This document shows, piece by piece, positions 16,276 through 30,829 of a DNA stretch of 64,000 nt. Numbering within the stretch: the first letter of the stretch is position 1; each line of letters opens with the position of its first letter. The notes under the pieces were generated by a model. The model searched no databases, had not been told where the DNA came from, and was given only the letters and a program-made list of their open reading frames with translations. Origin of the DNA: Opitutia bacterium (lineage in GTDB: Bacteria > Verrucomicrobiota > Verrucomicrobiia > Opitutales > Seribacteraceae); the NCBI GenBank assembly GCA_038110535.1, contig JAYNJW010000008.1, positions 1,446 through 65,445 on the forward strand, given 5' to 3'. Both the position numbers and the translations under genes were made by a program.

Positions 16276-17631
16276 TCAAAAGGCACGACCGGCGGACTTT
16301 TCAAACAAGGTAAACATCCTGCCTTTTCTGAAATAAGTGACCTGGCCGGAAGAGGATACAACCAACGCTATTGAATTGGTTGCATGGGAGATGGCCGCAG
16401 CGGCTACATGTCTCGTTCCCAGTCCTCCTGGCAGGACAATGTTGTCCGCTTTTGCCTGAATTAAACTCCCTGCGGTTTCCACCACACCATTTCCCCGGAC
16501 GATGAAAGCACCATCAATCAAAGCCAGCTCTTTGATGGTTTCATCCATGAATGGATTGAGAATATTTCGATCTTCTTCCTCATAGCCATGAAAGGGGTTA
16601 AGAATGAGTTGCTTGGATCGTTTGTATACCTCCTCATGGTCACCCAGAATAAACATGGCACCGATGGACTTCCCTTCGCGGCCGGTCAGGGCGAGATCGG
16701 TGGCAATTGCAGTAAGCCGTTCCAATGCCTCCGCAGAGACTCCGCTCGGGAGCATGTCTTCTTCGTGTCCGATAACAGACTCAAATTCCTCATCCACATC
16801 GACGACCAGAACGGTGTCGAGCTGTCCACTCTGGGGGATACCGCCGATACAACATACGCGGTCTTTGAAGCCAAATATTTGGCGGGTCAGGCCAAGAAGT
16901 ATAGCAGCCCTGAGCTGGGATAGTCTCGAATTAGAAACTGCACGAACGGCCAGTGCTGCGTGGGCCCGGTGATGATCGAGTTCATGCTCGGACACGCCCT
17001 CTCCGGCTAGCACTACCCGGAAGCCCGGAAAGGTCATGCGGGGAGCCAGGGATGCGGGGAATGCATCCGTGAACACTAAAATGGTCGAGCAATCTGCAGC
17101 TTTGGCAATTTTTGCGGCTTCATCAGTGAGCAATTTATTAAATTTAGTACGCCTTCGGGCAGGCCTTTCATCGGTTCCCGCAAAGGCGTGCCGCACCACA
17201 GTCTTAAAGTCGGACAAATCACGGGCCATCCAAAGATGGTCCATTACGGATTTGTCCTGAAAGGTACGGGCAAGGGTGGCGAGGAAAGACAGGTAATTCT
17301 TGGCGTTCTCGTTGGCGAGAAGGAGGAAAACATACCTGATCTCATCGTAACTTCCCTGACCGCTAAAGGATAGACCAGTGGGACAGCGACCAATGGCCAA
17401 CGCAAATGGTCTTTTCATTTTTACGCGGGCATGGGGCAGGGCGACACCTTCACCCAAATAGCTGGTGATGGCATGTTCCCGGGTGATTAATTCATCCAGG
17501 ACTTTCTTGCGGGTACGGGGAGAAGGGAGCAGGGCTTTGAAGGTTCCAAGTAATTCGGAGTAAGCGGCATTCAGATCCTGATGAGACAGGTCAATCACTC
17601 TGCTAGACGAAATGTAGCGATCTATTCGCAT
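16276..17631 (-). CDS. three-domain protein: PTS EIIA type-2 (PtsN-like) + PK_C-like + DisA_N/diadenylate cyclase (CdaZ-like)
   Basis: aa 1-150 contain GEGVALPHARV (EIIA-2 phospho-His context) and VFLLLANEN. aa 165-285 follow the pyruvate-kinase C-terminal-like pattern (CSTILVFTDAFPASLAPRMTFPGFRVVLA...GFKDRVCCIGGIPQSGQLDTVLVV). aa 310-440 form the DAC domain (GAMFILGD, LIDGAFIV, GGLGTRHVAAAAIS). Confidence 0.8.
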   Translation of the reverse strand: MRIDRYISSSRVIDLSHQDLNAAYSELLGTFKALLPSPRTRKKVLDELITREHAITSYLGEGVALPHARVKMKRPFALAIGRCPTGLSFSGQGSYDEIRYVFLLLANENAKNYLSFLATLARTFQDKSVMDHLWMARDLSDFKTVVRHAFAGTDERPARRRTKFNKLLTDEAAKIAKAADCSTILVFTDAFPASLAPRMTFPGFRVVLAGEGVSEHELDHHRAHAALAVRAVSNSRLSQLRAAILLGLTRQIFGFKDRVCCIGGIPQSGQLDTVLVVDVDEEFESVIGHEEDMLPSGVSAEALERLTAIATDLALTGREGKSIGAMFILGDHEEVYKRSKQLILNPFHGYEEEDRNILNPFMDETIKELALIDGAFIVRGNGVVETAGSLIQAKADNIVLPGGLGTRHVAAAAISHATNSIALVVSSSGQVTYFRKGRMFTLFEKSAGRAF

Positions 17632-18187: not shown

Positions 18188-18622
18188 ATGATTACATTGA
18201 CCGATCTTCGTAGAAATAAGTATTCCAAACAATCACGGGTCCGAGGTTTTACTCTGGTGGAAATCTTAATTGTTCTTGCACTAATCGGAATCGTTGCAGG
18301 TTTGGCGATGTCAAACCTTGGAGAAATCTTCGGAGGGGGAAAGGTCAAGGCCGCACAGACTTGGGTGAATAGCACGGGAGAAGCCTATGTGAACAGCTAC
18401 CTTGCCATGGTTGGAGATTATCCCAAAAGCCTTGCCGATCTGAAAAATCCGCCCAATGGTGTGCCTCCATTTGTTAAGCGGGCTTCCGATTTAAAGGATC
18501 CATGGGGTAAAGATTATGTTTATCAGTATCCAGGGGCAAGAAACACGGGAAGCTTTGATTTGTCGACCACGGCACCAGACGGTACGGTTTTAGGAAACTG
18601 GGACGACGCCACTGGCAATTGA
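18188..18622 (+). CDS. gspG: type II secretion major pseudopilin GspG
   Basis: Prepilin motif RG|FTLVEILIVLALIGIVAGLA (Glu at +5). C-terminal DPWGKDYVYQYPGARNTGSFDLSTTAPDG is typical of GspG. AGGA Shine-Dalgarno 7 nt upstream. Confidence 0.92.
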   Translation: MITLTDLRRNKYSKQSRVRGFTLVEILIVLALIGIVAGLAMSNLGEIFGGGKVKAAQTWVNSTGEAYVNSYLAMVGDYPKSLADLKNPPNGVPPFVKRASDLKDPWGKDYVYQYPGARNTGSFDLSTTAPDGTVLGNWDDATGN

Positions 18623-18623
18623 T

Positions 18624-19151
18624 TTGATTAAAAGGGGAAGGATCCAGCGATTCGATGGGTTTACCCTCATCGAAGTGTTATTGGTTCTTGCACTGGTGGG
18701 GGTTTTGGTAGGTTTGGTAGCTGGTAATGTAGGTGCATTTATTCGGGGTGCCCAGTTCGAACCCCCTAGTCGAGTTTTGAAAAAAGCCATTCTTGATGCA
18801 ATTTACGAAGCATCGGAAAGTAAGGAACTGATCCATCTCACTTATATCCAAGAAACGGCAACTTTTAGTGTATCTAGTAAGCATGGTACTGAAATAAATT
18901 CACACCAAATATTTAAAGGCACGAGGGAGGACAATTACGAGTTGCCTGAAATTATTTTTAAGGCGATTGGACCACAATCCGGGCCCGATGGAGATTCAAC
19001 TATTTATGATGAGGATGAATTAGTCCAAGCCAGAATATCATTTCACTATGGAAGTAGTGTGCCCTTTTCTGCTGAAATCCGATTCATGGACGAAACGGAG
19101 GAGTTGCAATTCGATCCATTTTCCGGATTTGTTATAAAGCGACAAGAGTGA
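18624..19151 (+). CDS. gspH: minor pseudopilin (GspH-like)
   Basis: Prepilin motif DG|FTLIEVLLVLALVGVLVG. 175 aa. Position directly after gspG. Confidence 0.75.
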   Translation: MIKRGRIQRFDGFTLIEVLLVLALVGVLVGLVAGNVGAFIRGAQFEPPSRVLKKAILDAIYEASESKELIHLTYIQETATFSVSSKHGTEINSHQIFKGTREDNYELPEIIFKAIGPQSGPDGDSTIYDEDELVQARISFHYGSSVPFSAEIRFMDETEELQFDPFSGFVIKRQE

Positions 19152-19657
19152 ATAAAAACTGGCACTGTTCTGAAAATAGCTTCATTCGAGGCTTTATGCT
19201 GATCGAGGTACTTATTGCCTTGGCCCTCTTTGCTTTGTCTGCGGTTATACTAGTAGATGGTGCTTTTGTAACCTCAAGAGTTGCTATGCAAATGAAAGAT
19301 ACCCGGGAATTAGAGCAAGATTTGATATGGGTTAGGAGTGAGGTATTGAAAATTGCAGATTATGAAAAATTTTCGGATGGTGGAGATTTAGAAACTTTGT
19401 CTATGGGAATGGTCTCGTGGACAGCTGTTGTCGAGATGACGGAAGTTTTGGACCTTTTTAAAGTTGTTCTTCGTTTAGAATATGATGGAAACGACGATTA
19501 TGGAATTGAGCCGGGCGAGCGTGAGTCGGCCATGTATTTGTGCCGACCAACTTGGGGAAGTCACCCCGATTTTTCCTCAGAGCGTTTGGGATTAATCGAA
19601 GAAAAGCGAAGAAAAATTCAAGAGCATCAAGATCAGAGAAAGCAAGCTAAATTATGA
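19148..19657 (+). CDS. gspI: minor pseudopilin (GspI-like)
   Basis: Prepilin motif RG|FMLIEVLIALALFALS. 4-nt overlap with the upstream gene. Assigned by gene order. Confidence 0.7.
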   Translation: MNKNWHCSENSFIRGFMLIEVLIALALFALSAVILVDGAFVTSRVAMQMKDTRELEQDLIWVRSEVLKIADYEKFSDGGDLETLSMGMVSWTAVVEMTEVLDLFKVVLRLEYDGNDDYGIEPGERESAMYLCRPTWGSHPDFSSERLGLIEEKRRKIQEHQDQRKQAKL

Positions 19658-20367
19658 AGCTTTTGAGGGGGTTCTCTTTAATTGAAGTTTTACTTGCACT
19701 TGCATTGGGGGGGATCCTTCTGATTGCAGCAAGTTCACTTCTGGTAACCATTTCTCAGGCATGGGCAAATCGTCCTGCAACTCGAGATGCGTTCGATGCT
19801 CATGTTAATGGTATTGCTCATTTTTTGACTGCAGTATTTGAAGAAGCGACTTACCCGAATGAAAACTCCCAAAATGTTGGGGGGGTTGAACTGCAAAGGC
19901 CCGTTGGTTTTTCAGATAGGGAAGATCCAATGATAAAGTTTTTTTTACCAGAGGCCCCACCTTTTTTTTATTGGCCTTACGGACCCGCAAATCGGGTTCA
20001 CTCGTATCTATTTTTTGAGGAAGCTGAGGGTTTATTTTTTTTATGGTATTCTGAGCTTCAAGAGCTGGAAAAGAGCGAAAATGGCGAGATGCAACTAGTC
20101 GATGAAGGACAACTATTTAGAACTCAAATTAGTACCTATTTGGATGAGGTGTATTACTGTTATTTCGGAGATGAGGATGACAGTCTCGATGATCAAAAAA
20201 GTTGGAACATACTTACTGATCTTGAAGAAAATGTGGAAACAGGCCAATTCAGAGTCCCAGATTTTATAAAAATGGTTTTTCGATGGGAGGAGCAAGATCT
20301 GGAACGGACAATTACATTGGCAATAAAAAAACCTGCTCCAAGCGGAATCGAGGAAGAACCAAGATGA
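19654..20367 (+). CDS. gspJ: minor pseudopilin (GspJ-like)
   Basis: Prepilin motif RG|FSLIEVLLALALGGILLIAASS. 237 aa. 4-nt overlaps on both sides. Confidence 0.7.
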   Translation: MKLLRGFSLIEVLLALALGGILLIAASSLLVTISQAWANRPATRDAFDAHVNGIAHFLTAVFEEATYPNENSQNVGGVELQRPVGFSDREDPMIKFFLPEAPPFFYWPYGPANRVHSYLFFEEAEGLFFLWYSELQELEKSENGEMQLVDEGQLFRTQISTYLDEVYYCYFGDEDDSLDDQKSWNILTDLEENVETGQFRVPDFIKMVFRWEEQDLERTITLAIKKPAPSGIEEEPR

Positions 20368-21404
20368 AAACGATGAGTAAGGTTAAAAAAAGGGGTGCAA
20401 TACTCGTATTTGTCTTAGGACTGGTCGTACTTTTGGGAACTTTGTGCCTGCGCCTAATGAAGGAAACGGTTCAGGAGCTTCGTCATTTTAGTCAATTTCA
20501 CAAGAGGGATGATTTGCGCTTACATGCCTATTCCTTGCTAGATATTACTGTTGGTGTGCTGAATGAATTTCGCACCTTAGACGGTAATGTATTAAAAACG
20601 GGGAGTGGGTGGGAGAATCCTATTGCATGGAGTGGTTTGCCAACACTTGACCCAAAAGTGGAGTGGTCGGTATCCCTTAAAGGCGAGTCGGGAAAGCTAC
20701 CTTTGTTCTCAACAGAGCCGAAAATATTGAAAGAGATCTTTGCGATCATGCATGCTGGTGGCAGGGGATTAGTAAATGAGGATGAAGGCCAGTCCTTTTA
20801 TGATGCATGGATGGACTGGCAAGATGAGGATCAAAATGAGAGAGAGGAAGGAGCAGAAGATGCCTATTATGAGAGCATGAATCCTCCTTACTATACTGCT
20901 GGAAAAAAGGTAAAAAGTTTTAAAGAGTTTCGCATGATCAAAGGATTTGGTTACGATCCAAACAATCCATATGAAAGTGGCTTGTTTTTTGATGAATTCG
21001 GTAACGAAACTGAAAACATGAGAAATTTTCGATCATCCTTTTCTTTTTATCATGAAGGAAAAGTCAATATTTGTGAATCATCACCTTTTCTTCTTGGTTA
21101 TATTTGCGATGATGATGAGTCTCTAATGCAAGAGGTAAGTGAATGGACTCCAGGTGATGGGCAAAACTTTCCGGCGATCGATAGTACCATTCCATTTACC
21201 AAAGGAATAAGTGAGACTTTTTTGATTGAGATACTTGTAAGAAAGGGGCGAGCAAAATTTAAACTGCATGCTGCTGTAACTTTTGCAAAAGAGCCGAATC
21301 AATCCAAAGCGAACAACTTAAAAACTCGGAAGAAGCGTAATGAGCAGTTAAAATATCCAGTGAGTGTTCTTAGGTTGCGTGAAAATGAGAATTTGATCGA
21401 CTAG
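20364..21404 (+). CDS. gspK: minor pseudopilin GspK
   Basis: Start MKTMSKVKKRG|AILVFVLGLVVLL with no Glu at +5, as in GspK. YDAWMDWQDEDQNEREEGAEDAYYES...FKEFRMIKGF matches the GspK DW-x-D...GAE...Y...EL-x-x-V-x-G pattern. ATGA overlap with gspJ. Confidence 0.85.
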   Translation: MKTMSKVKKRGAILVFVLGLVVLLGTLCLRLMKETVQELRHFSQFHKRDDLRLHAYSLLDITVGVLNEFRTLDGNVLKTGSGWENPIAWSGLPTLDPKVEWSVSLKGESGKLPLFSTEPKILKEIFAIMHAGGRGLVNEDEGQSFYDAWMDWQDEDQNEREEGAEDAYYESMNPPYYTAGKKVKSFKEFRMIKGFGYDPNNPYESGLFFDEFGNETENMRNFRSSFSFYHEGKVNICESSPFLLGYICDDDESLMQEVSEWTPGDGQNFPAIDSTIPFTKGISETFLIEILVRKGRAKFKLHAAVTFAKEPNQSKANNLKTRKKRNEQLKYPVSVLRLRENENLID

Positions 21405-21431: not shown

Positions 21432-22715
21432 TTGATGTCGGATGAGCAAGAGAGCGTCTCCGGTCTTCCAATGGGAGAACTGCGTGAAATTACCCTCCGA
21501 ATTCCAGGAGAGTGTTTCTTTTGCGAAACGATAACTCTGCCAAACAACCCGATTGAAGAAAAGAAAACAGGGGAGAAAGTTTCCCCATGGGACGAATATC
21601 TTTCCGGGGTCTTGAACCAGACGGGCTTCTCCCCCTATCCGGTTGAACAATTGGCATGGGGTTATCATTTGTGCAATCATACCAACCGGGCGTTTTTATT
21701 TGCCACCCCGTTGGGAAAGTTGCGCCAAATGGGTTGGCAGAACCTTGAATTGTTCCGGCGGGTGTTCCCCTCCTTTATCAGCCTACTCGGCAAGAGTTAT
21801 GAAACCCCAACAGCGATTTTTTTGCTGGTTGAGGAATCTTTAACCCTTGCCTGCTTTGGCTCTGATTCATCTGTTCCTGATTTTCTCTACACCCGCTCAG
21901 TCGAATTGGAGGAGGCCGATGGATTTGAAAAAGCAAAGTCCATGCTTCTTGGTTTGATCGATTTGTCTAAATACGAGCTTTGTCCGGATGTGCTGATCGC
22001 CCGTGAGGTTTACCGGCGGGAGGACAATTCATTTGAGTTTGAACACCAGTGGATGATGGGGAAAGACCCCTCTCTTGAGCTTGAGCAAGATATCATTATG
22101 GATGCGGATATCCTTTGGCAGCATGATTTGAGAGCATTGGATTTCAAAATTTTGGAGAAAAAAAGGCGCAGGCAGGAGCGATCCCGTTGGAAAGCGATCA
22201 AGGCCAGTCTTGTTTTTGCAATCCTGATGATGCTTGGTGTGATTGGGCTGAAAGTGGGTGACCATCAGTTGGATAGCTTGAATCTTGATGAACAAAAAAT
22301 GAGCGAGCAGGTCCCATTAGTTTTGGAATCGCAAAGGTTGTTGGAGAAATTGAAGCAAAATCAACTTGGTGGGATTGATCCATTTGGCACTATTGGCCGT
22401 GTTACCATTTACCGAGGGGGTGGCTTTGATAATCCTCATGTATGGTTTTCTAAAGCCCATTTTGAGACCCGTAACCATGTAAAGATCGAGGGGGAGGGCA
22501 GAAATGTTGAATCGATCAATAATTTTATCGAGCGGTTGGAAACGAACCAAGTCGCATTAATTCGTAAGGACCGAACTGGTAACGATCTTCGATCAATTAA
22601 GAGCGGAGGAGGTTCCACATCGTTTGAGGTTGTGCTTGAAATGTTAGAAGAATTAACGGTTGATTCCGAGGCAGGGCATTTAGGCCAAGATGGCAATGGG
22701 AGCCTAGAAAAATGA
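21432..22715 (+). CDS. gspL: GspL-like bitopic assembly-platform protein
   Basis: 427 aa with a cytoplasmic N-domain of about 250 aa, a single TM (SLVFAILMMLGVIGLKV) and a periplasmic C-domain. The call rests mainly on architecture and its position between gspK and the gspM-like gene. Confidence 0.6.
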   Translation: MMSDEQESVSGLPMGELREITLRIPGECFFCETITLPNNPIEEKKTGEKVSPWDEYLSGVLNQTGFSPYPVEQLAWGYHLCNHTNRAFLFATPLGKLRQMGWQNLELFRRVFPSFISLLGKSYETPTAIFLLVEESLTLACFGSDSSVPDFLYTRSVELEEADGFEKAKSMLLGLIDLSKYELCPDVLIAREVYRREDNSFEFEHQWMMGKDPSLELEQDIIMDADILWQHDLRALDFKILEKKRRRQERSRWKAIKASLVFAILMMLGVIGLKVGDHQLDSLNLDEQKMSEQVPLVLESQRLLEKLKQNQLGGIDPFGTIGRVTIYRGGGFDNPHVWFSKAHFETRNHVKIEGEGRNVESINNFIERLETNQVALIRKDRTGNDLRSIKSGGGSTSFEVVLEMLEELTVDSEAGHLGQDGNGSLEK

Positions 22716-23260
22716 AATATTTAGAAAAGGTATTTTTTCGTATGCAGGACCGGGAGCAAAAGTTGCTTGTTGTTGCAATTATAGTGGTACTTGCAGTTGC
22801 TTGTTTGAAACTTTTTCAAAGTGGGATACAGAAGTTCAATTCTTGGCAGGAAATCGACCAACTAATGGAGAGTCATGAGATGATCCTTCGATTAAAGCCG
22901 GCGATTGATCAAGCCCTCGAGGAGCAGAAAATTGCCCAGCAAAATAAGAGCTATGATAAAAAGAATTTGAGTAACCGGGTTTCTAGCCTGGCTGATCAGG
23001 TTTTTCCTGCGAGGGATTACCGCGAGCTCGATACTGAGGAGCGGGAAAGATATTCCCAGCATCGCGTACGTATTACTTTTAAACGCTCCAGTTACGAAGA
23101 GGTAAATGATTTTGCCGGCTTGATTCGGGGCGAGAGTCCATACATGTTTTTAAGTGAGGTGAAAATTGAACCTAACTATCCGCCCAAATCCAGACCTTAC
23201 GAACCCACCACCTTTGACGCAGTCTTTGAGGTCAGTTCTGTCGAATTTATTAACCAATGA
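22712..23260 (+). CDS. gspM: GspM/PilO-like bitopic protein
   Basis: 182 aa with an N-terminal TM (LLVVAIIVVLAVACL), a coiled segment and a small C-domain. 4-nt overlaps with its neighbours. Confidence 0.55.
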   Translation: MKYLEKVFFRMQDREQKLLVVAIIVVLAVACLKLFQSGIQKFNSWQEIDQLMESHEMILRLKPAIDQALEEQKIAQQNKSYDKKNLSNRVSSLADQVFPARDYRELDTEERERYSQHRVRITFKRSSYEEVNDFAGLIRGESPYMFLSEVKIEPNYPPKSRPYEPTTFDAVFEVSSVEFINQ

Positions 23261-25878
23261 AATTCTCATTCTTTTTTACCTTTTTTCTTTTCTCTTTTCT
23301 GATTGGTAACGGACAAGTCCCTGTCCCTCCGCAGGGTGGACAAGTCCCTGTCCCTCCGCAGGGTGGACAAGTCCCTGTCCCTCCGCAGAGTTTATTTGGG
23401 AATATTCCGAATCCGAATGATCTATTGGAGCGCGTCAGATTAAGAGATCATGATGCTAATATGATCTTGGATATGATTCAAAGAATTACCGAACGGTATA
23501 TTTTGCGTCCTCAGAATTTGCCCCAAGTGAAAATCACTTTTGACAGCATTGATGTGTTGAGCAAGGGGGACACTTTACTCGCACTGCAAAGTTTGCTTGC
23601 TATGAACGGAATCGGTATAACCGAGATTGATTCTCAGTTTTACAAAGCTGTTCCTGCTAGCGGAATGAATGTACATGTTCCCATTTGGCTGGATGTACCT
23701 GCATCTTCTCTTCCGCCCAGCCAAGACATATATTTCAAAGTATTTTATCTGGAGTATATTCCTGCTGACAAGATGCGTGAAATTCTAAATCCCTTCGCCA
23801 CGCCCAATGTTTCGTCCTTGTTAACATTGCCTAGTCAAAAATCCATCATGATAACTGATTCATTGATCAACCTTCAGAGAATGGAGAAACTCATTCAACG
23901 AGTTGACCAACCTCAACCTGAAAAAGATATAATTACTTTTTGGTATGAGACTAAGCGATTTAACGCAAGAACGATTGCAGCATATTTCGATAGTCAGTGG
24001 GAGGAACTGTGGAAGGATAAGTTCTCTATCAGACCACAGTTTTTTAATCTTTTGGACAAAGAAAGTAAGCAAAAGGAAAAGATCATAGAAAAAATACCCA
24101 AAAAGGGAAATGATAATGACGAGAACAAAGTGGTTGATTACAAAGAATTGGAGGTTGATATTTTTCCCTACAAGATGTTGGGAATTACCTGTCATATTAA
24201 TGACAAAATCATGCTTACTGGAATTTTGGAAGAATTTGATGTATCAGTCGCCGAGGATTCTAATTTTGTCATTGGTTGGTTTAAGCCTAAAAGGTTTATT
24301 TCTTCTGCGGTTGCACAATTTTTTGATTCGGCTTGGGAAAAACTTTTGAAAGATGAGTTTCATCATAAACCTATATTTATGTTTGAGGGCACATCAATAC
24401 AGTTGGGATATTATTGCCACAAAGAAGATGAGGAAAAGTTATTACAATACCTTGAGTCTCTAGATGTTGAATTACCTTACGAAATTAACAGTAAGCTAAT
24501 ACCTTTGTATCACGCTTCTTCCAGTGCAGTTGCCCAGACGCTACAAATGATGGCTCTCAGAGTAGTAGAGGGAGGAAGAAGCAATTCAGAAGCAGGCAAA
24601 CCAGGTGGCCAATCTAATGTTAATTCAGCAAGGCAGAGTCTTCAATCGTGGCAGGATCCTTTTTTCTCCGAAATATTTTATTTTTTCCAAGATACTCGAA
24701 GTAACGGCATTTTTGTTATGGGTACTCTTGAGGATGTCATTAGGGCGGAGGAATATATTAAAACTCTTGATACTCCATTGCCCATGGCGAAGATTGATAC
24801 GATCTTTGTAATGGTCGATTTAAGCCAGTCTAATCAGCGTGGTATCGATGCTTTATTTCAGGATGTCTCATGGCAAAAAGGTGGAATCGTACAGGAAACG
24901 GTTACTGATGCGGGAGCTGATAATATCCCCGGAACCGCAGATGATACCCAAACGGTTGTTACTAGTGGGGTAGAGGATCAGGTAGCAGGTACCTTAAAAG
25001 TGCCTTTACTGAATTCCGCTCTATCCTTCGAAATGGATAGCTGGAAAGTAAACCAAATACAATGGAATCAAATCTTCAGTCTGGCTTCACAGCGAGAAGA
25101 TATCAGGATTTTTTCAACTCCCTCCATTACAATAAGTCATGGAAAGGATGAGGGTCCTGTTGTTACTTCCGAGGGTTCTGCGGAAACCAGTGGTGGAGGA
25201 ACGGAAGGTGCCCAAGGTAAAGGTCAGTTTAGTGAGATTGAAATTATCGATGAGCGTAGCATTGGTCTACCAGGCGTAACCATGGCGAATGGGCAAACAA
25301 GCCAACCCAACATACAAAAGCTAGTTGCTAAAACATCACTCACAGTATTACACCCAAGAATAAGGAAGACAGTCAGGGATTCAACTGGCAGGGTTATTGA
25401 GCGTGGTACTGTATTTATGTCGGTTATTGTAACGGCTCAGAAATTTGATACGACAGTTTCCAATACCTATGAAGGACAGACGCTGCCCGCGATTAAAGGT
25501 CGATCCGCGGTGACTGATTTGGCGATTCGGGATGGACAAATCATGGCCCTAGGCGGGTTCCAGGAGGTTCAAATGGACGAGGAAGTTTCTAAATACAACT
25601 TTTTAAGTAATATTCCTTATCTAGGAGAAAAGTTTTTTACTCCTACACAAAGGAGATACACGCCCACGGAAATGATGATTTTTATTAGGCCAACCATAAT
25701 CGACCCACTCAATCCAATGGATGATCTAAGTTCCTTCAACTCGGACAGAATTGATTCGATGATGAATCGGGAATATACTCCTGCCTTTCGCTCACCATCA
25801 GGAAAGATCTTTGGAGCTCCAGATAAGAAAAAGTCTTATTCGGAGCAGGACGAACCTTCTGAAAAACCATCTCTGTAA
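23257..25878 (+). CDS. gspD: secretin GspD with extra N-domains
   Basis: Signal peptide. N0/N1-type segments (FYKAVPA, KVFYLEYIPADKMREIL...MITDSLINLQRMEKLIQRVD). Secretin C-domain ending in NIPYLGEKFF...EMMIFIRPTII. 873 aa. Confidence 0.9.
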   Translation: MKFSFFFTFFLFSFLIGNGQVPVPPQGGQVPVPPQGGQVPVPPQSLFGNIPNPNDLLERVRLRDHDANMILDMIQRITERYILRPQNLPQVKITFDSIDVLSKGDTLLALQSLLAMNGIGITEIDSQFYKAVPASGMNVHVPIWLDVPASSLPPSQDIYFKVFYLEYIPADKMREILNPFATPNVSSLLTLPSQKSIMITDSLINLQRMEKLIQRVDQPQPEKDIITFWYETKRFNARTIAAYFDSQWEELWKDKFSIRPQFFNLLDKESKQKEKIIEKIPKKGNDNDENKVVDYKELEVDIFPYKMLGITCHINDKIMLTGILEEFDVSVAEDSNFVIGWFKPKRFISSAVAQFFDSAWEKLLKDEFHHKPIFMFEGTSIQLGYYCHKEDEEKLLQYLESLDVELPYEINSKLIPLYHASSSAVAQTLQMMALRVVEGGRSNSEAGKPGGQSNVNSARQSLQSWQDPFFSEIFYFFQDTRSNGIFVMGTLEDVIRAEEYIKTLDTPLPMAKIDTIFVMVDLSQSNQRGIDALFQDVSWQKGGIVQETVTDAGADNIPGTADDTQTVVTSGVEDQVAGTLKVPLLNSALSFEMDSWKVNQIQWNQIFSLASQREDIRIFSTPSITISHGKDEGPVVTSEGSAETSGGGTEGAQGKGQFSEIEIIDERSIGLPGVTMANGQTSQPNIQKLVAKTSLTVLHPRIRKTVRDSTGRVIERGTVFMSVIVTAQKFDTTVSNTYEGQTLPAIKGRSAVTDLAIRDGQIMALGGFQEVQMDEEVSKYNFLSNIPYLGEKFFTPTQRRYTPTEMMIFIRPTIIDPLNPMDDLSSFNSDRIDSMMNREYTPAFRSPSGKIFGAPDKKKSYSEQDEPSEKPSL
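23311..23388 (+). repeat. perfect 27-bp tandem repeat, 2.9 copies (GGACAAGTCCCTGTCCCTCCGCAGGGT)
   Basis: Units at 23311-23337, 23338-23364 and 23365-23388 are identical at the DNA level. They encode (GQVPVPPQG)x3 just after the secretin signal peptide. Confidence 0.97.
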
Positions 25879-25881
25879 ATA

Positions 25882-26355
25882 GTGAGGCAAATTATAAATA
25901 TTGGTTTTCTTTCGCTCCTGGCACCGATTTTCTGTTCTGCAAGCAATCCTTTTCTGCGACCAGGCTCAAACAGTGCTAAGCCACCAGTTATCCAAAGGCC
26001 AGCCCCGCCACCTCCCAAACCAATACCTCGAAATCCAAATATTGAATTTAGAGGATACTATGAATTTAAGGGAGAATGGATGCTTGCCTTATTTGATAAA
26101 TCAAAAAACGAAGGATTTTGGCTGACCCAAGGTGAAAAGATTGAGGGCATAGATGCAGAAGTAGAGAGTTTTAATCCCGAAACCGAAATCATTAAACTTA
26201 AAGGGGGAATGACTTTAAACTTAAAAGATTCAGACAAGACAGTCCTGCCCGTGCCTAGTGGACAGGTCAAAAGCACTTCGCCTCCCATTCCTCGGAACTC
26301 CACGCCCGCCGTTCAAGTTCCCAAACCTGGCATTCCTCCACCGAGAAGGAGATAA
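25882..26355 (+). CDS. small Pro-rich envelope protein, GspC-HR/PilP-like
   Basis: 157 aa with a GTG start. N-terminal hydrophobic anchor, Pro-rich linker, then a beta-rich core (FRGYYEFKGEWMLALFDKSKNEGFWLTQGEKIEGIDAEVESF...IKLK) resembling secretin-binding HR/PilP domains. No PDZ domain. Confidence 0.5.
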   Translation: MRQIINIGFLSLLAPIFCSASNPFLRPGSNSAKPPVIQRPAPPPPKPIPRNPNIEFRGYYEFKGEWMLALFDKSKNEGFWLTQGEKIEGIDAEVESFNPETEIIKLKGGMTLNLKDSDKTVLPVPSGQVKSTSPPIPRNSTPAVQVPKPGIPPPRRR

Positions 26356-26364
26356 GATTTAGCG

Positions 26365-28557
26365 ATGATTGACGATCCTTCGTTTGAAAATCTGAGAGAA
26401 TCCTCAAAGGATGGAGCGGAGCCGACTTTTGCTTCGATGGACTGGTGGCCCAATCTTTCTGATTTGGACAGATTAAATGTGCTCAATCATCCCACGGAGG
26501 ATCGGGCAAGGATACTTGCGTCGAAAGTCTCCTTGAGCGTTGAGGAAACGATGCAGGCAATGTCTGATCTCACCGGAATTCCTCTGGTGGATGATTATGA
26601 GCTTTCGGAAATTCCTACTAAGCTAATCCCCCTTCGCCTGATTCATTCCTTCTGTTGCCTGCCTATCAAACAATCAAAGCATGCTCAGGATTCCCCTGAT
26701 ACATTCAAGGTGTTATGGATCGAGTCTGATGAAGTAAAGTTATCCAATATCTCGGGGAGTATTAGTGACCGATTTGATGTGGTTTGTGCTTCCAGTGCGG
26801 AAGAAGCTGTAAGTAGATTCAAGCAGATAGCCAATATTGCAATTGTGGTTTCCCCTTTTCGAATTCAAGGAATTAGTGGAATAGATCTGCTCAGCCAATT
26901 GAGGGAGGAGCGACCGGAAGTCATTACTGTGTTGCTTGCCTCTCAGCACGATCTTGCCAGCAAGCAATCTTTGGATGCGGAAAACCGAGTTTTTAAGGTT
27001 ATGTATGCTCGGAGTGGGCAGGGTCGGGATGAGTTTAGTCCCAAAGACATTGCCAATGTGTTAGCAGATTGTGCTTCGGAATGCCAAAGGGAAAAAATTA
27101 ACTCCATCTACGACCCTGAGTCGGATGAGCGCTTGCACCTGCTAACCGCCTGGCCCCCCACGGATCGAATGAGCCGATGGGTCTATGCGGTTTCAGGAAA
27201 GAAACCAGTCTGGTTTCTTGGTATGCCAGACAGAATTCTCGGTGCGATTACTGAAAATTTTGGCATAGGGGCAGATAGCTTGGATGAGTCCGACTTCGAT
27301 TTGGACGAGGAGCAAGATCAACAAGACGATATCGAAGACCAAAATGCAGCCATTATTAGGTTTGTGAATGAAGTCATCCAAAAGGCCATCGTGGATCGGG
27401 CGACTGATATTCATTTCGAACCCCACAAAGAGACCCTGCAAATCCGTTACCGGATTGATGGACAATTGGTGCCGGTTCGTGTTCCAGACAATTTGAGGAA
27501 TTTTCAGGACGCGATCATTTCCCGCATCAAGATAATGAGTGCCATAAACATATCGGAAAAGCGTCGCCCTCAGGGGGGGCGGATCACTTTTACGATGGGG
27601 CAAAGTGATCTGGATATCCGTGTTTCCACTCTGCCCACCTTATACGGGGAAAGTATTAGTTTACGCTTGCTCAACGAAAAGTCCCAACCTCTTTCCATGC
27701 GTGAACTGGGCCTGCATACCCAAGATGAAAACAAGATCGTTGCTGTTTTGGAAAAACCCCACGGGATCGTCCTTGTTACCGGGCCCACAGGATCAGGGAA
27801 ATCCACATCCCTCACTGCGTTCATCCGTAAAATTCACAAGCCGGAAAGACGGATCATGACGGTCGAAGATCCAGTTGAGTATGAGGTCTCCGGGGTAAAC
27901 CAGACGCAGGTTAATTCCGAGATTGGCTTTTCCTTTGCCAGTGCCTTACGGGAAATTCTCCGTCAGGATCCTGATGTGATCATGGTCGGAGAAATTCGCG
28001 ACCGGGAGACGGCTGATATTGCTATCCGTGCCTCTCTTACCGGTCATTTGGTTTTAAGTACCTTGCATACCAACGACGCACCTGGTGCCATCACTCGGTT
28101 GATTGATATGGACATCGAACCGTTCCTGATTGCATCATCGGTTGAAATGGTGATTGCTCAGCGTTTGGTTCGCAGGTTGTGCACTGCTTGCGCTTCACCG
28201 CAAAATATTTCTGAGTCGGACTTGAAAGCTTCCCTGTCCTTGCTCGAAATCGATCCTACTGAGGTCATTCATTTGGATAAAGTACTCCAAGCCAATGGAT
28301 GTAATAAATGTCAGAATCTCGGGTTTCATGGAAGAGTGGGGATTTTCGAATTGATGAGAATGAGCGATGATATTCATGGTTTGATCATTAAGAGTGCCTC
28401 AGCTCCTGAGATAAGAGATGTTGCCCTCAGGCAAGGAATGACCACCTTGCAACAAAGTGGTTGGGCTCAAATTAAGCGTGGTTTGACCAGCCTAAGCGAG
28501 GTGGTCAGATATGCTGATATCTTTGCTGAAGAAACTGTTGAGGATGTATCACCTTGA
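26365..28557 (+). CDS. gspE: type II secretion ATPase GspE with inserted CheY-like (pseudo-receiver) domain
   Basis: Walker [10 protein letters not shown], Asp box/Walker [13 protein letters not shown], His box [10 protein letters not shown], tetracysteine CTAC...CNKC. 730 aa, against about 500 aa that I recall for canonical GspE. See the finding for the insertion. Confidence 0.93.
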
Positions 28558-28593
28558 TCCCCACTGGCTTTGCCTTAACCAGAGGATTATGTA

Positions 28594-29844
28594 ATGGCAG
28601 AATTTGAATATTTAGCCGTAGACAAAAAAGGGAAAACCCGGACTGGTACTCTTTCGGCATCGGATGTCAAAAGTGCCCGCAGAAAAGCTATGCAATCGGG
28701 GTTGACTGTACTCAAGGTCAAAATGTCTTCCGGTCCTAATCCGGGTCCGTCCAGTCCCGGCAATCAAAAACAAAAAAGAAAAGAATCCTTGCGGTCCAAA
28801 TACAGCAACAAGGGCGAGGCAATTGGCCTGGAATTTTTAAAACGACTACTTGAACTGCATGGATCCGGGATGCCCGTTGCAGATGCGGTAAAGTTGTTAA
28901 ACCATCGTCTTTCCGACCCTCAACAGAGGAATTTGTCTGCGGTGTTGTGGAAAGAATTGGCCGAGGGTAGAACGCTCTCCCGGGCCATGCGCCAATTGCC
29001 GGGATATTTCAGTGAGTCGTCCACCTATGTAATCGAGGCGGGGGAGGCAACTGGCAATCTTGCCCCTATCTTAAGCAAGATTATTTCTCATCTCGAAGAG
29101 AAGCGCGAAATCCGCTCGCGGGTGGTAAGCGGGATGACTTATCCCTTGTTTGTGGGTCTCATGGCGATTGGTGTTGTTCTGTTCTTTCTTTTCTTTCTAC
29201 TTCCTCAAATTCAGGAAATGCTTGCGTCTTTGGGTGGGGAACTGAATTTAATGGCCCGGATTATGATTGATGGTTCAAATATGGTTTTGTTTTTCGGACC
29301 GTTTATAATTTTGGCAATTCTAATAGGGGTGGGGATTACCATGCAATGGAGCAAGACGGAAAAAGGAGGCGTTTCCTTGGATCGTTCCATGCTCAGGATT
29401 CCTCTTTTTGGCAATATTCTTCTTTTGTCCGAACTGTTTCATCTTAGTAGTTTGTTGGGCACTCTTATTTGGAGTGGCATTGGATTGACAGAAAATTTAA
29501 AGCTCTGTGAAAGAACGATCAAGAATCGCTTCCTGAGGTCTTCTTTTCGTTCCGCCCGAATTTTGGTAAATGAGGGAAAATCTCTGCCCGATGCATTTCG
29601 TAAATTCAAGCTTATGCCCGCGATGCAACTGGATGTGATTGAAGTTGGAGAAAAAACAGGAAACTTAGGAAACGGTATGGATGATATTTCCAAGGCGTTC
29701 CGGAGCCAACTGACCAAGCGAATCAAGGTTATGACAAATCTTATTTCTGGATTAGCACTGGGCTTTGCCTTCTCCTTAGTTGCTTTGGTTGCTATATCAA
29801 TTGTAACCAGTATTTTTCAGGTCAGCAAAAGCATTAGTTATTAA
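28594..29844 (+). CDS. gspF: type II secretion inner-membrane platform protein GspF
   Basis: 416 aa with a duplicated T2SSF-type domain (VIEAGEATGNL and VIEVGEKTGNL) and three TM segments. Confidence 0.92.
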   Translation: MAEFEYLAVDKKGKTRTGTLSASDVKSARRKAMQSGLTVLKVKMSSGPNPGPSSPGNQKQKRKESLRSKYSNKGEAIGLEFLKRLLELHGSGMPVADAVKLLNHRLSDPQQRNLSAVLWKELAEGRTLSRAMRQLPGYFSESSTYVIEAGEATGNLAPILSKIISHLEEKREIRSRVVSGMTYPLFVGLMAIGVVLFFLFFLLPQIQEMLASLGGELNLMARIMIDGSNMVLFFGPFIILAILIGVGITMQWSKTEKGGVSLDRSMLRIPLFGNILLLSELFHLSSLLGTLIWSGIGLTENLKLCERTIKNRFLRSSFRSARILVNEGKSLPDAFRKFKLMPAMQLDVIEVGEKTGNLGNGMDDISKAFRSQLTKRIKVMTNLISGLALGFAFSLVALVAISIVTSIFQVSKSISY

Positions 29845-29848
29845 TCTC

Positions 29849-30829
29849 ATGTCCCTTTGTAAGAAACGGATACTTTACCTAATTTTAATTTCTTTGCTCT
29901 TTGGTATTAGTTGCACCCCCGAGGAGGAGTACGAAGCTGAAGCACCTAAGGACCAAGTATCCGAAAAACTTTCAAAACTGGCAAAGTCTGGGAGGTATGT
30001 TTTTGAAGATGGTTCGCTCTATGAGGGAGAACTGGTTATGGGTTTACCGGATGGTTTTGGTACGATTGAATTCGTTTCAGGTGATCTTTACGAGGGGCAA
30101 TTTGAAAAAGGTATCTCTAACGGTTATGGGACAATGCGTTACAAAAGTGACCAAGAATTGGAAAAGTACTCGGGCAACTGGGAAAATGGGAAAAGGTCGG
30201 GCTTCGGTACTTTAACCATGTCCGACCAGTCTGTGATGGAGGGCCATTGGAAAAATGGGGCGTTGCTTTATGGCGAGTATAAAATTGTGGGCGGTGCAAT
30301 TACATATGGGAAATGGGATGGTGGAGTAGTTGAAGAAGGCAAAGTCATCCATCCAGGTGGCGATCAATTCTGCGGAAAATTCAAAGAAGACGGGACTTAT
30401 GACTTCGGCACGCTTACCTTGCCCAGTGGTGTAATTTATTTTGGTGAATTCCAAAATGGCATGTACCACGGAACCGGGGTTCTAATTGATGAATCGGGAA
30501 ATATTTACACGGGTAAATTGGTGGAGGGAGAAAAGGAAGGAGTCGGTATACTCGAAGATCTGGACGGGTCCAAATATACGGGGGAGTTCCTAGAGGGCCT
30601 ACCTCATGGAGTGGGCAGGCAGAGCGATCTTTCCGGGGTGACCTACATTGGTTCTTGGAAAGAGGGGTACAAAGATGGTTCCGGAGTCTTAGATTTTGGC
30701 GATGGCAGTACCTATGTAGGGAAGTTTGAGAATGGACTGGCAATTGATGGCATTTACGACTGGGGAGATGGGACCACCACTCGTTCCTACCAGGACGAAA
30801 ATGGTGCCTGGCAAGACTTTGATGAATGA
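29849..30829 (+). CDS. MORN-repeat lipoprotein
   Basis: Lipobox LLFGISC. About 10 Y-x-G-x-(W/F/L)-x-x-G-x-x-x-G-x-G repeats (YEGELVMGLPDGFG, YEGQFEKGISNGYG, YSGNWENGKRSGFG...). Starts 4 nt after the gspF stop. Confidence 0.85.
   Translation: MSLCKKRILYLILISLLFGISCTPEEEYEAEAPKDQVSEKLSKLAKSGRYVFEDGSLYEGELVMGLPDGFGTIEFVSGDLYEGQFEKGISNGYGTMRYKSDQELEKYSGNWENGKRSGFGTLTMSDQSVMEGHWKNGALLYGEYKIVGGAITYGKWDGGVVEEGKVIHPGGDQFCGKFKEDGTYDFGTLTLPSGVIYFGEFQNGMYHGTGVLIDESGNIYTGKLVEGEKEGVGILEDLDGSKYTGEFLEGLPHGVGRQSDLSGVTYIGSWKEGYKDGSGVLDFGDGSTYVGKFENGLAIDGIYDWGDGTTTRSYQDENGAWQDFDE

What the first reader, a model, noticed from the sequence alone, without database searches (positions are those of the whole stretch)
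26704..27084. CheY-like pseudo-receiver domain inserted inside the N-terminal domain of the secretion ATPase GspE
GspE here is 730 aa, whereas the canonical enzymes I recall are about 500 aa. The N-terminal T2SSE_N-type domain appears split. Its first half is aa 47-103 or so (...[32 protein letters not shown]). Its second half is aa 255-300 or so ([45 protein letters not shown]). About 130 residues (aa 114-240) separate the halves. They show a regular (beta-alpha)5 pattern that aligns by eye to receiver domains: [10 protein letters not shown] / [16 protein letters not shown] / [36 protein letters not shown] / VFKVMYAR. CheY has its phospho-acceptor Asp in ..VISDW.. This protein has VVSPF (Pro164, CCT at 26854-26856). 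The N-terminal acidic DD pair is ES. So the domain probably cannot be phosphorylated and would act as a pseudo-receiver, serving as a protein or ligand interaction switch. The N-terminal domain of GspE docks onto cytoplasmic GspL, so an insertion at this point is well placed to gate engagement of the ATPase with the secretion platform. I do not know of a described T2SS ATPase with this architecture, but I cannot search.
Basis: partly seen in the sequence, partly recalled or inferred. Interest (0 to 1): 0.72.

Follow-up and report, generated by a model that had tools for sequence, protein, structure and literature searches.

The report
Dead receiver domain inside secretion ATPase
The motor ATPase of a type II secretion system in a marine Opitutales (Verrucomicrobiota) bacterium carries a CheY-type receiver domain spliced into a hairpin of its platform-docking N-terminal domain; here the domain has lost every phosphorylation residue, but relatives keep an intact one, which suggests an undescribed direct two-component input into a secretion motor.

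Summary
ORF 26365-28557 (+) encodes a 730-aa GspE/PilB-type ATPase in a complete T2SS-like gene cluster.

- **Fold:** aa 114-248 fold as a (beta-alpha)5 receiver. The AF2 model has mean pLDDT 87. The listed Foldseek hits are nearly all receiver-domain structures; the best reach target TM 0.83-0.88 at about 2 A rmsd.
- **Nesting:** the receiver sits inside the MshEN/T2SSE_N domain, in the hairpin between ...CLPIK and [10 protein letters not shown]. Removing aa 107-250 in silico restores a Pfam MshEN hit across the junction.
- **Lost residues:** all five phospho-chemistry residues are replaced. DD is E120/S121, the acceptor Asp is P164, Thr is A192, and Lys is A215 or D222.
- **Not an artefact:** a second assembly is 99.95% identical across both junctions.

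New here is the family context. Of 46 orthologues, all from Opitutales-type Verrucomicrobiota genomes (mostly marine MAGs/SAGs), 14 carry the same insertion with an intact quintet, 5 carry degenerate versions, and 27 have a plain 10-residue hairpin. The window's nearest relatives are insert-less.

I read this as one gain of a real receiver, followed by degeneration and loss. The window's copy is a phosphorylation-independent pseudo-receiver or a decaying relic. Gating of GspL docking is plausible but untested. I found no published description, so I rate it a new variant of a known kind.

The parts
26365..28557 (+). GspE/PilB-type secretion ATPase gene, 730 aa, carrying the nested receiver domain
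   Evidence: ORF. Pfam T2SSE E 1e-130 over aa 325-715. NCBIfam GspE 521 bits and PilB 511 bits, both below their equivalog cut-offs. Walker A GPTGSGKS at aa 473-480, [12 protein letters not shown] at aa 535, CTAC at 606 and CNKC at 646.
26437..26670 (+). First part of the N-terminal MshEN/T2SSE_N domain (aa 25-102): helical ND0-like part plus the first hairpin strand ...[13 protein letters not shown]
   Evidence: Alignment with insert-less orthologues. AF2 helices at aa 33-40, 44-54 and 59-70, and a strand at aa 98-101. MshEN hit on the spliced sequence. No c-di-GMP MshEN motif.
26671..27129 (+). Insertion relative to insert-less orthologues (aa 103-255): linkers plus the receiver domain
   Evidence: Insert-less orthologues have a 10-residue hairpin turn here; the window has 158 residues.
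26704..27108 (+). Receiver (CheY-like) fold, aa 114-248. Elements: b1 114-119, a1 123-133, b2 137-142, a2 145-154, b3 158-164, a3 172-182, b4 187-192, a4 194-206, b5 211-214, a5 226-248
   Evidence: AF2 pLDDT mostly above 90. Foldseek receiver-domain hits with target TM 0.83-0.88 for the best. HupR E 1.9e-6. Family REC HMM E 2.8e-15.
26722..26727 (+). E120-S121 in place of the acidic DD pair (CheY D12/D13)
   Evidence: Alignments with canonical family receivers: VDDDE against IESDE.
26854..26856 (+). P164 (CCT) in place of the phospho-acceptor Asp (CheY D57)
   Evidence: HupR alignment, Asp55 against Pro164. Family alignment, VVLSDMRMPG against [10 protein letters not shown].
26938..26940 (+). 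A192 in place of the conserved Thr/Ser (CheY T87)
   Evidence: VLITGH against VLLASQ.
27007..27030 (+). b5-a5 loop with a 7-residue lineage-specific insertion ([10 protein letters not shown]). The conserved Lys-Pro (CheY K109-P110) is absent, replaced by A215 or D222 depending on alignment
   Evidence: TKP against YAR or RDE.
27130..27270 (+). Second part of the MshEN/T2SSE_N domain (aa 256-302; ND1/N1E-like): strand LHLLTA, helix, strand, helix
   Evidence: Invariant LxTxWPPxxRxxxW...VSG motif in all orthologues. AF2 strands at 256-261 and 280-285, helices at 267-277 and 288-299. MshEN hit.
27271..27339 (+). Acidic flexible linker (aa 303-325, [24 protein letters not shown]) between the N-domain and the N2/ATPase core
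   Evidence: pLDDT below 50 for aa 303-320. Sequence printed. An acidic ND1-ND2 linker is described for PilB (PMC8389850).
18188..23260 (+). Upstream T2SS genes: GspG (18188-18622), three pseudopilin-like ORFs (18624-19151, 19148-19657, 19654-20367), GspK (20283-21404), a GspL-slot ORF of unknown family (21432-22715), and a weak GspM-like ORF (22712-23260)
   Evidence: Pfam T2SSG, N_methyl and T2SSK_1st. GspM E 3.5e-4, below cut-off. Synteny with L001.
23257..25878 (+). Secretin (GspD-like), 873 aa
   Evidence: Pfam Secretin E 1.7e-18 and Secretin_N E 8.7e-15.
28594..29844 (+). GspF platform protein, 416 aa
   Evidence: Pfam T2SSF, two repeats, E 1.9e-42.

Best explanation
**What it is.** The gene encodes the assembly ATPase of a T2SS-like machine of a marine Opitutales bacterium. 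A complete receiver domain is nested in the first beta-hairpin turn of the ND1/N1E (MshEN_C) sub-domain. In studied systems that sub-domain docks the ATPase onto GspL/PilM.

**How it arose.** An ancestor of one Opitutales sub-clade acquired a genuine phospho-accepting receiver at this site. It is most similar to the HupR, NtrC and RpfG types. Two sub-clades still keep the full Asp-Asp/Asp/Thr/Lys quintet, so there the secretion motor is probably a direct target of an unlinked histidine kinase. In the window's lineage the quintet has been wiped out (E120, S121, P164, A192, no Lys-Pro). The a4-b5-a5 face has also been rewritten, with a 7-residue loop insertion, while the hydrophobic core strands are kept.

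**How it most likely works.** The domain still folds but cannot be phosphorylated. It most likely acts as a phosphorylation-independent pseudo-receiver. In that role it would be a fixed or partner/ligand-controlled bulky module on ND1 that modulates how the N-domain meets the inner-membrane platform or neighbouring protomers.

**Shown and inferred.**
- Shown: the fold, the nesting site, the loss of catalytic residues, the family distribution, and the absence of an assembly artefact.
- Inferred: the single gain, phosphorylation in canonical members, and any effect on GspL docking or secretion.
For: - **Fold and nesting:**
- **Loss of all five residues:**
- **Homology of the window's receiver to the family receiver, at the identical site:** family HMM E 2.8e-15 against only 23 bits for generic Pfam.
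- **Distribution:** 46 loci, of which 14 are canonical, 5 degenerate and 27 without insert. All come from Opitutales, Opitutia or Verrucomicrobiota genomes, mostly marine MAGs/SAGs.
- **Trees on the core and on the flanks alone:**
  - Insert-less outgroups: the L045+L048 and L027-L044 clades each have bootstrap 1.0.
  - The window is nested with the insert-less L020-L023 and the degenerate L016 (bootstrap 0.86-0.88).
  - Canonical clades A and B have bootstrap 1.0.
- **A degenerate receiver can be maintained under constraint:** L016, L017 and L046 are 68-78% identical in the receiver against 84-89% in the core.
- **Core strands retained in the window:** b1, b2 and b5 are 50-67% identical to the canonical consensus, whereas a4, a5 and loop 5 are 8-9%.
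- **T2SS context, fully syntenic with the canonical-REC locus L001:**
- **Independent assembly:**
- **Precedents for regulating PilB/GspE through the N-terminal domain:** c-di-GMP on MshEN (PMC5013675), PilZ-FimX on ND0/ND1 (PMC8389850), and PATAN-REC regulators binding the PilB1 N-terminal region (bioRxiv 10.1101/2021.06.11.447907).
Against: - No functional data exist for any member.
- The window's receiver is only 11-23% identical to any other family receiver, while the core is 79-89% identical. No second sequence of its type exists apart from a near-identical contig. Purifying selection on this particular pseudo-receiver therefore cannot be shown.
- Its sister lineages have deleted the domain altogether. 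That fits a relic on its way out as well as it fits a repurposed module.
- No histidine kinase or second receiver lies in the 64-kb window (the kinase test is weak). None lies within 10 kb of the canonical locus L001 either.
- The GspL slot is unrecognisable.
- pTM is 0.60, so the orientation of the receiver relative to ND1 is not defined.
Confidence: 0.6

Rival explanations
1. **Decaying relic.** After phospho-signalling was lost, the receiver in the window's lineage became a functionally neutral passenger. It is tolerated because its N- and C-termini lie close together in a surface hairpin. It is evolving nearly freely and is destined for deletion, as has already happened in the closest relatives.
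For: - Receiver identity to all relatives is 11-23% while the core is 79-89%.
- All five catalytic residues and the a4-b5-a5 face are replaced.
- The nearest orthologues, L020-L023, lack the domain.
- No second sequence of this receiver type exists in 5.8 billion proteins or in the JGI metagenomes.
Against: - 151 residues are retained in frame without stops.
- The hydrophobic strand pattern is kept, and AF2 is confident with pLDDT above 90 over most of the domain.
- The family HMM still scores 48.6 bits.
- Another degenerate lineage (L016/L017/L046) clearly conserves its pseudo-receiver.
- A large misfolding-prone insert in an essential docking domain would be costly.
Confidence: 0.3
2. **Still a signalling receiver.** The domain would work by a non-canonical route, for example by binding a small ligand such as a cyclic dinucleotide (as described for the Caulobacter Cle and ShkA pseudo-receivers), or by phosphorylation on another residue. 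Secretion would remain signal-controlled.
For: - Pseudo-receivers that bind c-di-GMP are documented (PMC10333796).
- The N-domain itself lacks the MshEN c-di-GMP motif, with a best match of 7 of 11 defined positions. A replacement ligand site is therefore conceivable.
- A diadenylate-cyclase-like gene lies upstream and is syntenic in L001.
Against: - I found no cyclic-dinucleotide-binding motif in the domain. I checked for the Cle-type [Y/F]xGPx[R/K]R motif (quoted) by eye only.
- There are no conserved relatives from which to define a pocket.
- Adjacency of the cyclase is on the opposite strand, separated by nuoA, and may be coincidental synteny.
Confidence: 0.07
3. **Artefact.** The insertion would be a chimeric assembly or a mis-called ORF, not a real protein feature.
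For: Nothing beyond the unusual length. The intact protein does not reach the Pfam thresholds for either Response_reg or MshEN.
Against: - An independent assembly has both junctions, 99.95% identity and two SNPs.
- The same insertion at the same site occurs in 19 other genome loci and in many metagenome proteins.
- The reading frame is continuous and the composition is native-like.
Confidence: 0.01

Closest known systems
Canonical GspE/EpsE/XpsE T2SS ATPases (PDB 2BH1, 4PHT, 2D27) and PilB assembly ATPases
   Same: - The N2 and C-terminal ATPase domains, Walker A, the Asp box and the tetracysteine motif.
- An N-terminal MshEN/T2SSE_N domain joined to the core by an acidic linker.
- The gene sits between the secretin and GspF in a gsp-like cluster.
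   Different: - A ~150-residue receiver domain is nested in the first hairpin turn of ND1/N1E.
- NCBIfam GspE and PilB equivalog cut-offs are not reached.
- The GspL partner is not recognisable.
REC-bearing GspE orthologues of marine Opitutales (e.g. loci L003-L014, L019, L035; proteins P0001-P0003, P0036), found here and unpublished as far as I could search
   Same: - The same insertion site, the same flanking motifs (CLPI... / ...LLTVWPP) and the same syntenic T2SS cluster.
- The window's receiver is detectably homologous to theirs.
   Different: - They keep VDD(D/E)E, LSDMRMPG, (T/S)G(H/Y) and TKP, which is the full phospho-acceptor quintet.
- They score 65-68 bits on Pfam Response_reg.
- The window has none of these residues and scores 23 bits.
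MshE/MshEN c-di-GMP-regulated ATPases (Wang et al. 2016, PMC5013675)
   Same: Regulation of a GspE/PilB-type motor through its N-terminal MshEN domain. The paper also lists REC among the domains found together with MshEN.
   Different: - There the signal is c-di-GMP bound by the MshEN_N helices. The REC-MshEN example named there, Bd2402, has REC in tandem with MshEN_N.
- Here REC is nested inside MshEN of a bona fide ATPase, and the c-di-GMP motif is absent.
Trans-acting regulators of PilB N-domains: PilZ-FimX (FimX has a degenerate REC) and the cyanobacterial PATAN-REC regulators PixE, PixG and LsiR
   Same: A two-component-type or degenerate receiver protein controls an extension ATPase through its N-terminal region (PMC8389850, PMC11656802, bioRxiv 10.1101/2021.06.11.447907).
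   Different: - Those act in trans on T4P motors. In PixE the PATAN domain, not REC, makes the contact.
- Here the receiver is covalently built into a T2SS motor.
Atypical or pseudo-receiver domains in secretion and pilus machinery: the TadZ/CpaE N-terminal atypical receiver domain (from my own knowledge, not checked here) and PorX of the T9SS (PDB 8p6f, 8ted)
   Same: A receiver fold lacking, or independent of, canonical phosphorylation and used as a protein-interaction or localisation module of an envelope nanomachine. PorX appears among both the sequence and Foldseek hits.
   Different: They are separate proteins, or N-terminal fusions to other enzymes. None is nested in a GspE N-domain.

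Membership tests
GspE/PilB-type secretion ATPase (Pfam T2SSE PF00437) | T2SSE domain hit above the gathering score | tested here: met
   436 bits against a cut-off of 24.9, aa 325-715.
GspE/PilB-type secretion ATPase (Pfam T2SSE PF00437) | Walker A, Asp box and the tetracysteine (CxxC...CxxC) motif of assembly ATPases | tested here: met
   GPTGSGKS at 473, [12 protein letters not shown] at 535, CTAC at 606 and CNKC at 646.
T2SS GspE equivalog (NCBIfam TIGR02533) | Score at or above the curated equivalog cut-off | tested here: not met
   521 bits against a cut-off of 630. PilB TIGR02538 scores 511 against 676. The assignment to T2SS rather than T4P rests on context.
T2SS gene cluster | Neighbouring GspD secretin, GspF, GspG, minor pseudopilins and GspK | tested here: met
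   Pfam Secretin, Secretin_N, T2SSF, T2SSG, N_methyl and T2SSK_1st.
T2SS gene cluster | Recognisable GspL and GspM, the docking partners of the GspE N-domain | tested here: inconclusive
   The 427-aa ORF in the GspL position matches no family or PDB sequence. The 182-aa ORF gives GspM at E 3.5e-4, 20 bits against a cut-off of 60.
MshEN / T2SSE_N domain (PF05157) | Pfam hit above the gathering score | tested here: inconclusive
   No hit on the intact protein. After removing aa 107-250 in silico the score is 23.4 bits against 23.1, spanning the junction. Insert-less orthologues P0067 and P0011 score 28.3 and 23.1.
MshEN / T2SSE_N domain (PF05157) | [quoted passage not shown] | tested here: not met
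   No regex match. The best window matches 7 of 11 defined positions.
Response-regulator receiver domain (REC, PF00072) | Flavodoxin-like (beta-alpha)5 fold | tested here: met
   AF2 secondary structure with pLDDT 87. The listed Foldseek hits are nearly all receiver-domain structures; the best have target TM 0.83-0.88.
Response-regulator receiver domain (REC, PF00072) | Pfam gathering score | tested here: not met
   23.0 bits against 30.2. Supporting homology: HupR at E 1.9e-6 and the family REC HMM at E 2.8e-15.
Response-regulator receiver domain (REC, PF00072) | Phospho-acceptor Asp at the end of b3 | tested here: not met
   Pro164.
Response-regulator receiver domain (REC, PF00072) | Acidic pair after b1, Thr/Ser after b4, Lys after b5 | tested here: not met
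   E120/S121, A192, and A215 or D222.
Response-regulator receiver domain (REC, PF00072) | Phosphotransfer from a histidine kinase or from acetyl-phosphate | not testable with these tools
   Requires biochemistry. No kinase was found in the window (weak test) or near L001.
Pseudo-receiver (functional category, not a sequence family) | Receiver fold retained, phospho-chemistry lost, and the domain maintained by selection | tested here: inconclusive
   The first two features are met. Selection cannot be measured for the window's type because no second sequence exists. It is evident for the degenerate L016/L017/L046 group.

The most novel reading that the evidence does not exclude
One clade of marine Opitutales has wired two-component signalling directly into the T2SS motor. 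A phospho-accepting receiver nested in the GspL-docking ND1 sub-domain of GspE would switch secretion on or off post-translationally. The clade also preserves a natural series from intact receiver, through several independently degenerated pseudo-receivers (the window among them), to precise loss. The window's pseudo-receiver would then be a repurposed, phosphorylation-independent gate or localisation module rather than junk.
Probability: 0.35. Interest if true: 0.75.

Novelty: new variant of a known kind. Interest (0 to 1): 0.58.

Why it matters
T2SS activity is usually thought to be controlled at the level of transcription or, in some species, by c-di-GMP binding to the ATPase N-domain. A receiver domain built into the sub-domain that docks GspE onto the platform would be a direct post-translational two-component input into a secretion motor, which I could not find described.

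The family offers a ready-made comparative series for testing how the N-domain controls engagement of the motor: an intact receiver in 14 species genomes, at least four kinds of degenerate receiver, and clean deletions, all in otherwise 80-96% identical ATPases. The hosts are marine Opitutales genomes known only as MAGs and SAGs. From my own knowledge, members of this order are often discussed as polysaccharide degraders, which would give regulated exo-enzyme secretion ecological relevance; I did not test that here.

For the window itself the message is more modest. Its copy is the most diverged, phospho-dead member, and it may be a relic.

Tried and rejected
- **Receiver alone against the protein database:** searching aa 105-255 against 5.8 billion proteins gave no hit at E<=0.01. 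Nothing can be said about selection on this receiver type.
- **JGI metagenome scan with six 8-residue peptides of the receiver:** 177 pattern matches, none confirmed.
- **Profile search of 1.84 billion representatives with the REC-in-MshEN profile:** the output was swamped by generic multi-REC proteins. Among the 150 best hits listed, only fragments of the same Opitutales family covered the flanks as well. It supports a narrow distribution, but it does not exclude independent REC-GspE fusions elsewhere.
- **First AF2 run, full length with 35 sequences:** the receiver reached only pLDDT 58-73. A second run on aa 20-312 with a deeper alignment gave pLDDT 87.
- **GspL interface:** I tried to read Lu et al. 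2014 (PMC4150747), but the paper is not held. Whether the insertion site touches the GspL-binding surface is therefore unresolved.
- **Identifying GspL and the 157-aa ORF:** Pfam, NCBIfam and PDB sequence searches gave nothing.
- **Histidine kinase in the window:** phmmer with one HATPase_c-containing protein (P0116) gave nothing. This is a weak test.
- **Recombination as the source of the patchy distribution:** a flank-only tree still places the window with the insert-less L020-L023. A simple N-terminal swap is therefore not supported. The exact 10-residue hairpin in every insert-less gene but one remains odd if the domain was lost independently.
- **Literature:** seven searches found no description of the architecture.
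Full report
**1. The observation**

The ORF at 26365-28557 (+) is 730 aa. Pfam places a T2SSE ATPase domain at aa 325-715 with E 1e-130. The protein has a Walker A motif (GPTGSGKS, aa 473), an Asp box (aa 535) and the CxxC...CxxC pair typical of assembly ATPases.

The gene lies in a T2SS-type cluster:
- GspG, three pseudopilin-like ORFs and GspK
- a 427-aa ORF of unknown family in the GspL position
- a weak GspM-like ORF
- a secretin
- a 157-aa ORF of unknown family
- this ATPase, then GspF

**2. Is aa 114-240 a receiver?**

On the intact protein, Pfam Response_reg reaches only 23 bits against a gathering score of 30.2. Sequence alone is therefore sub-threshold. Four other results settle it:
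- phmmer against the PDB finds the HupR receiver (2jk1) at E 1.9e-6. Pro164 lies opposite the acceptor Asp.
- An HMM built from the canonical receivers of orthologues hits aa 113-251 at E 2.8e-15.
- AlphaFold2 on aa 20-312, with a 54-row alignment, gives mean pLDDT 87 and a clean b1-a1-b2-a2-b3-a3-b4-a4-b5-a5 series over aa 114-248. An earlier full-length run was less confident but had the same topology.
- Foldseek against the PDB returns almost only receiver-domain structures. The top hits are 3jte, 3kcn and HupR, with target TM 0.83-0.88, rmsd 1.7-3.0 A and probability 1.00.

**3. Is it inside the N-terminal domain?**

Yes. Close orthologues of 552-578 aa read ...LRLIHxxxCLP-(8-residue turn)-xLVTVWPPTxRMSRW... 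The window has 158 residues between CL and HLLTAWPP.

Deleting aa 107-250 in silico makes a Pfam MshEN (PF05157, formerly T2SSE_N) hit appear. It scores 23.4 bits against a cut-off of 23.1, covers profile positions 2-85 of 90 and runs straight across the splice. Insert-less orthologues score 23-28 bits on the same model.

The only PDB sequence hits of the spliced domain are the XpsE N-domain (2d27/2d28). They are weak (E 0.2), but they align CPVGE--RDGRLDL with [15 protein letters not shown].

In the nomenclature of Wang et al. 2016 (PMC5013675) and Llontop et al. 2021 (PMC8389850), the insert sits in the first hairpin turn of MshEN_C, also called ND1 or N1E. In GspE/EpsE that sub-domain binds the cytoplasmic domain of GspL/EpsL. 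It is followed here by the usual acidic flexible linker, aa 303-325.

**4. Phospho-chemistry**

Against canonical family members the window reads as follows:

| Conserved site | Canonical members | Window | Residue in window |
|---|---|---|---|
| Acidic pair after b1 | VDDDE | IESDE | E120, S121 |
| Acceptor Asp after b3 | VVLSDMRMPG | [10 protein letters not shown] | P164 |
| Thr/Ser after b4 | LITGH | LLASQ | A192 |
| Lys-Pro after b5 | ILTKP | [12 protein letters not shown] | A215 or D222, with a 7-residue insertion |

No alternative acidic residue lies near the end of b3. The core strands remain 50-67% identical to the canonical consensus. Helices a4 and a5 and the b5-a5 loop are 8-9% identical. 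The classical output face has therefore been rewritten.

**5. Artefact?**

No.
- A Logan assembly of a different run (SRR26337570) carries a contig 99.95% identical over window 24302-28591. It encodes the identical 730-aa protein. The two SNPs are at 26124, outside the gene, and at 27033, which is synonymous (E223).
- Composition is continuous across the gene.

**6. Relatives**

The architecture is not unique.
- Protein searches found metagenome proteins with the same insertion, for example P0001-P0003, P0036, P0038, P0040, P0041 and P0062-P0065.
- A scan of GTDB species-representative genomes gave 46 orthologous loci. All are from Opitutales, Opitutia or Verrucomicrobiota genomes, mostly marine MAGs and SAGs.
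- Fourteen loci carry the insertion with the complete quintet. Two metagenome members of this canonical type, P0001 and P0003, score 65-68 bits on Pfam Response_reg.
- Five loci carry degenerate versions of at least three further kinds: L015 with Glu at the acceptor; L016, L017 and L046 with Ser at the acceptor and DN; and L018 with the Asp kept but the rest altered.
- Twenty-seven loci have a plain hairpin, which is exactly 10 residues long in all but one.
- Locus L001, which has a canonical receiver, is syntenic with the window gene for gene. The shared stretch runs from a diadenylate-cyclase-like gene and nuoA upstream to a metallo-beta-lactamase-fold gene downstream.
- The profile search of 1.84 billion representatives listed no full-length match outside this family among its 150 best hits.

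**7. History**

Neighbour-joining trees on 538 core columns, with 200 bootstraps, and on the N-domain flanks alone agree on the main points:
- Two insert-less clades, L045+L048 and L027-L044, each have bootstrap 1.0. They lie outside everything else.
- Canonical receivers form two solid clades with bootstrap 1.0.
- The degenerate forms cluster together.
- The window is nested with the insert-less L020-L023 and the degenerate L016. Bootstrap is 0.86 for window+L021+L022 and 0.88 for the six-member clade.

The window's ATPase core is 92-96% identical to these neighbours. Its receiver is only 11-23% identical to any other receiver in the family.

The simplest reading has three steps:
- one acquisition of a genuine receiver
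- loss of phospho-chemistry in one sub-clade, with rapid divergence
- at least two complete losses, in L020-L023 and in L025/L026/L028

The losses restore the ancestral hairpin length to the residue. That is remarkable and unexplained. A simple recombinational swap of the N-terminus is not supported by the flank tree.

**8. Mechanism**

*Shown:* a folded receiver without phospho-acceptor chemistry is covalently nested in the sub-domain that, in studied homologues, docks the motor to the platform.

*Inferred:* in canonical members an unlinked histidine kinase phosphorylates the receiver, and the resulting change in the a4-b5-a5 face alters N-domain interactions. Those interactions could be GspL docking, contacts between protomers, or recruitment of a partner. 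No kinase lies within 10 kb in L001 or in the 64-kb window (weak test).

For the window's copy I favour a phosphorylation-independent pseudo-receiver at about 0.6. This would be a fixed or partner-controlled module on ND1. The main rival is a relic on its way to deletion, at about 0.3.
- In favour of retained function: 151 in-frame residues, a conserved core, a confident fold, and the precedent of L016/L017/L046. Their degenerate receiver is 68-78% conserved against 84-89% for the core.
- In favour of the relic: extreme divergence, no second sequence of its type, and sister lineages that have deleted the domain.

The N-domain lacks the MshEN c-di-GMP motif, so the MshE mode of control is unlikely here.

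**9. Comparison with known systems**

Control of PilB/GspE motors through the N-terminal domain is established in three forms:
- c-di-GMP on MshEN (PMC5013675)
- PilZ-FimX on ND0/ND1, where FimX has a degenerate REC (PMC8389850, PMC11656802)
- PATAN-REC regulators binding the PilB1 N-terminal region (bioRxiv 10.1101/2021.06.11.447907)

Wang et al. mention REC among the domains that co-occur with MshEN; the example they name, Bd2402, has REC in tandem with MshEN_N. I found no description of a receiver nested inside ND1 of a secretion ATPase, nor of any T2SS ATPase with a cis receiver. The library is limited to open-access papers and preprints.

The protein is a member of the T2SSE ATPase family. 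It has an MshEN-type N-domain, though only marginally by score. It has the REC fold but fails every catalytic criterion of a functional receiver.

**10. Verdict**

Two things must be added:
- The window's domain is the degenerate end of a small Opitutales family of REC-bearing GspE proteins that I could not find described.
- Its own function is uncertain.

I rate it a new variant of a known kind, with interest 0.58. The family is more interesting than this particular copy.

Noticed in passing
window 23257-25878: The secretin is unusually long at 873 aa. Right after the signal peptide it carries a triple GQVPVPPQG repeat, and long unassigned stretches separate the Secretin_N and Secretin hits.
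   Followed up: no
window 25882-26355: A 157-aa proline-rich ORF between the secretin and GspE has no Pfam or NCBIfam match. It is conserved in position in the syntenic locus L001 (159 aa), so it may be a lineage-specific T2SS component.
   Followed up: partly
window 21432-22715 and 22712-23260: The ORF in the GspL position (427 aa) has no detectable family or PDB relative. The next ORF is only weakly GspM-like (E 3.5e-4, below cut-off). The platform partners of this GspE are therefore highly diverged.
   Followed up: partly
window 29849-30829: A MORN-repeat protein with six repeats and a lipoprotein-like N-terminus lies immediately downstream of GspF. A 328-aa ORF occupies the same position in L001.
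   Followed up: no
window 16276-17631 (- strand): A PTS_EIIA_2 - DacZ_P - DAC protein, which looks like a sensor-linked diadenylate cyclase, lies upstream of the T2SS cluster next to nuoA. The same arrangement occurs in L001.
   Followed up: no
loci L020-L048 (insert-less) against L003-L019 (insert-bearing), hairpin between CL and xLxTxWPP: Every insert-less orthologue but one has exactly 10 residues in the hairpin, including lineages nested among REC-bearing ones. The residue after the insert also tracks the state: LLT with the insert and LVT without, with a few exceptions. Precise repeated loss, recombination or co-adaptation would each fit, and this is unexplained.
   Followed up: partly
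L007+L008 (JAYYRA01, DS_MAG62) and L012+L017 (JAYQBI01): Two MAGs each hold two different REC-GspE loci. One pair is canonical plus canonical and the other is canonical plus degenerate. They may be true paralogous T2SS clusters or mixed bins.
   Followed up: no
P0040 (290-aa fragment, contig of 709 kb): A second, independent receiver has Pro at the acceptor position (VVLSPVVLP) but still keeps the Lys-Pro (QKP). It looks like an intermediate stage of degeneration.
   Followed up: partly
window 8376-8462 (- strand): A single tRNA-Leu (CAA) is the only Rfam or ARAGORN hit in the 64-kb window.
   Followed up: no
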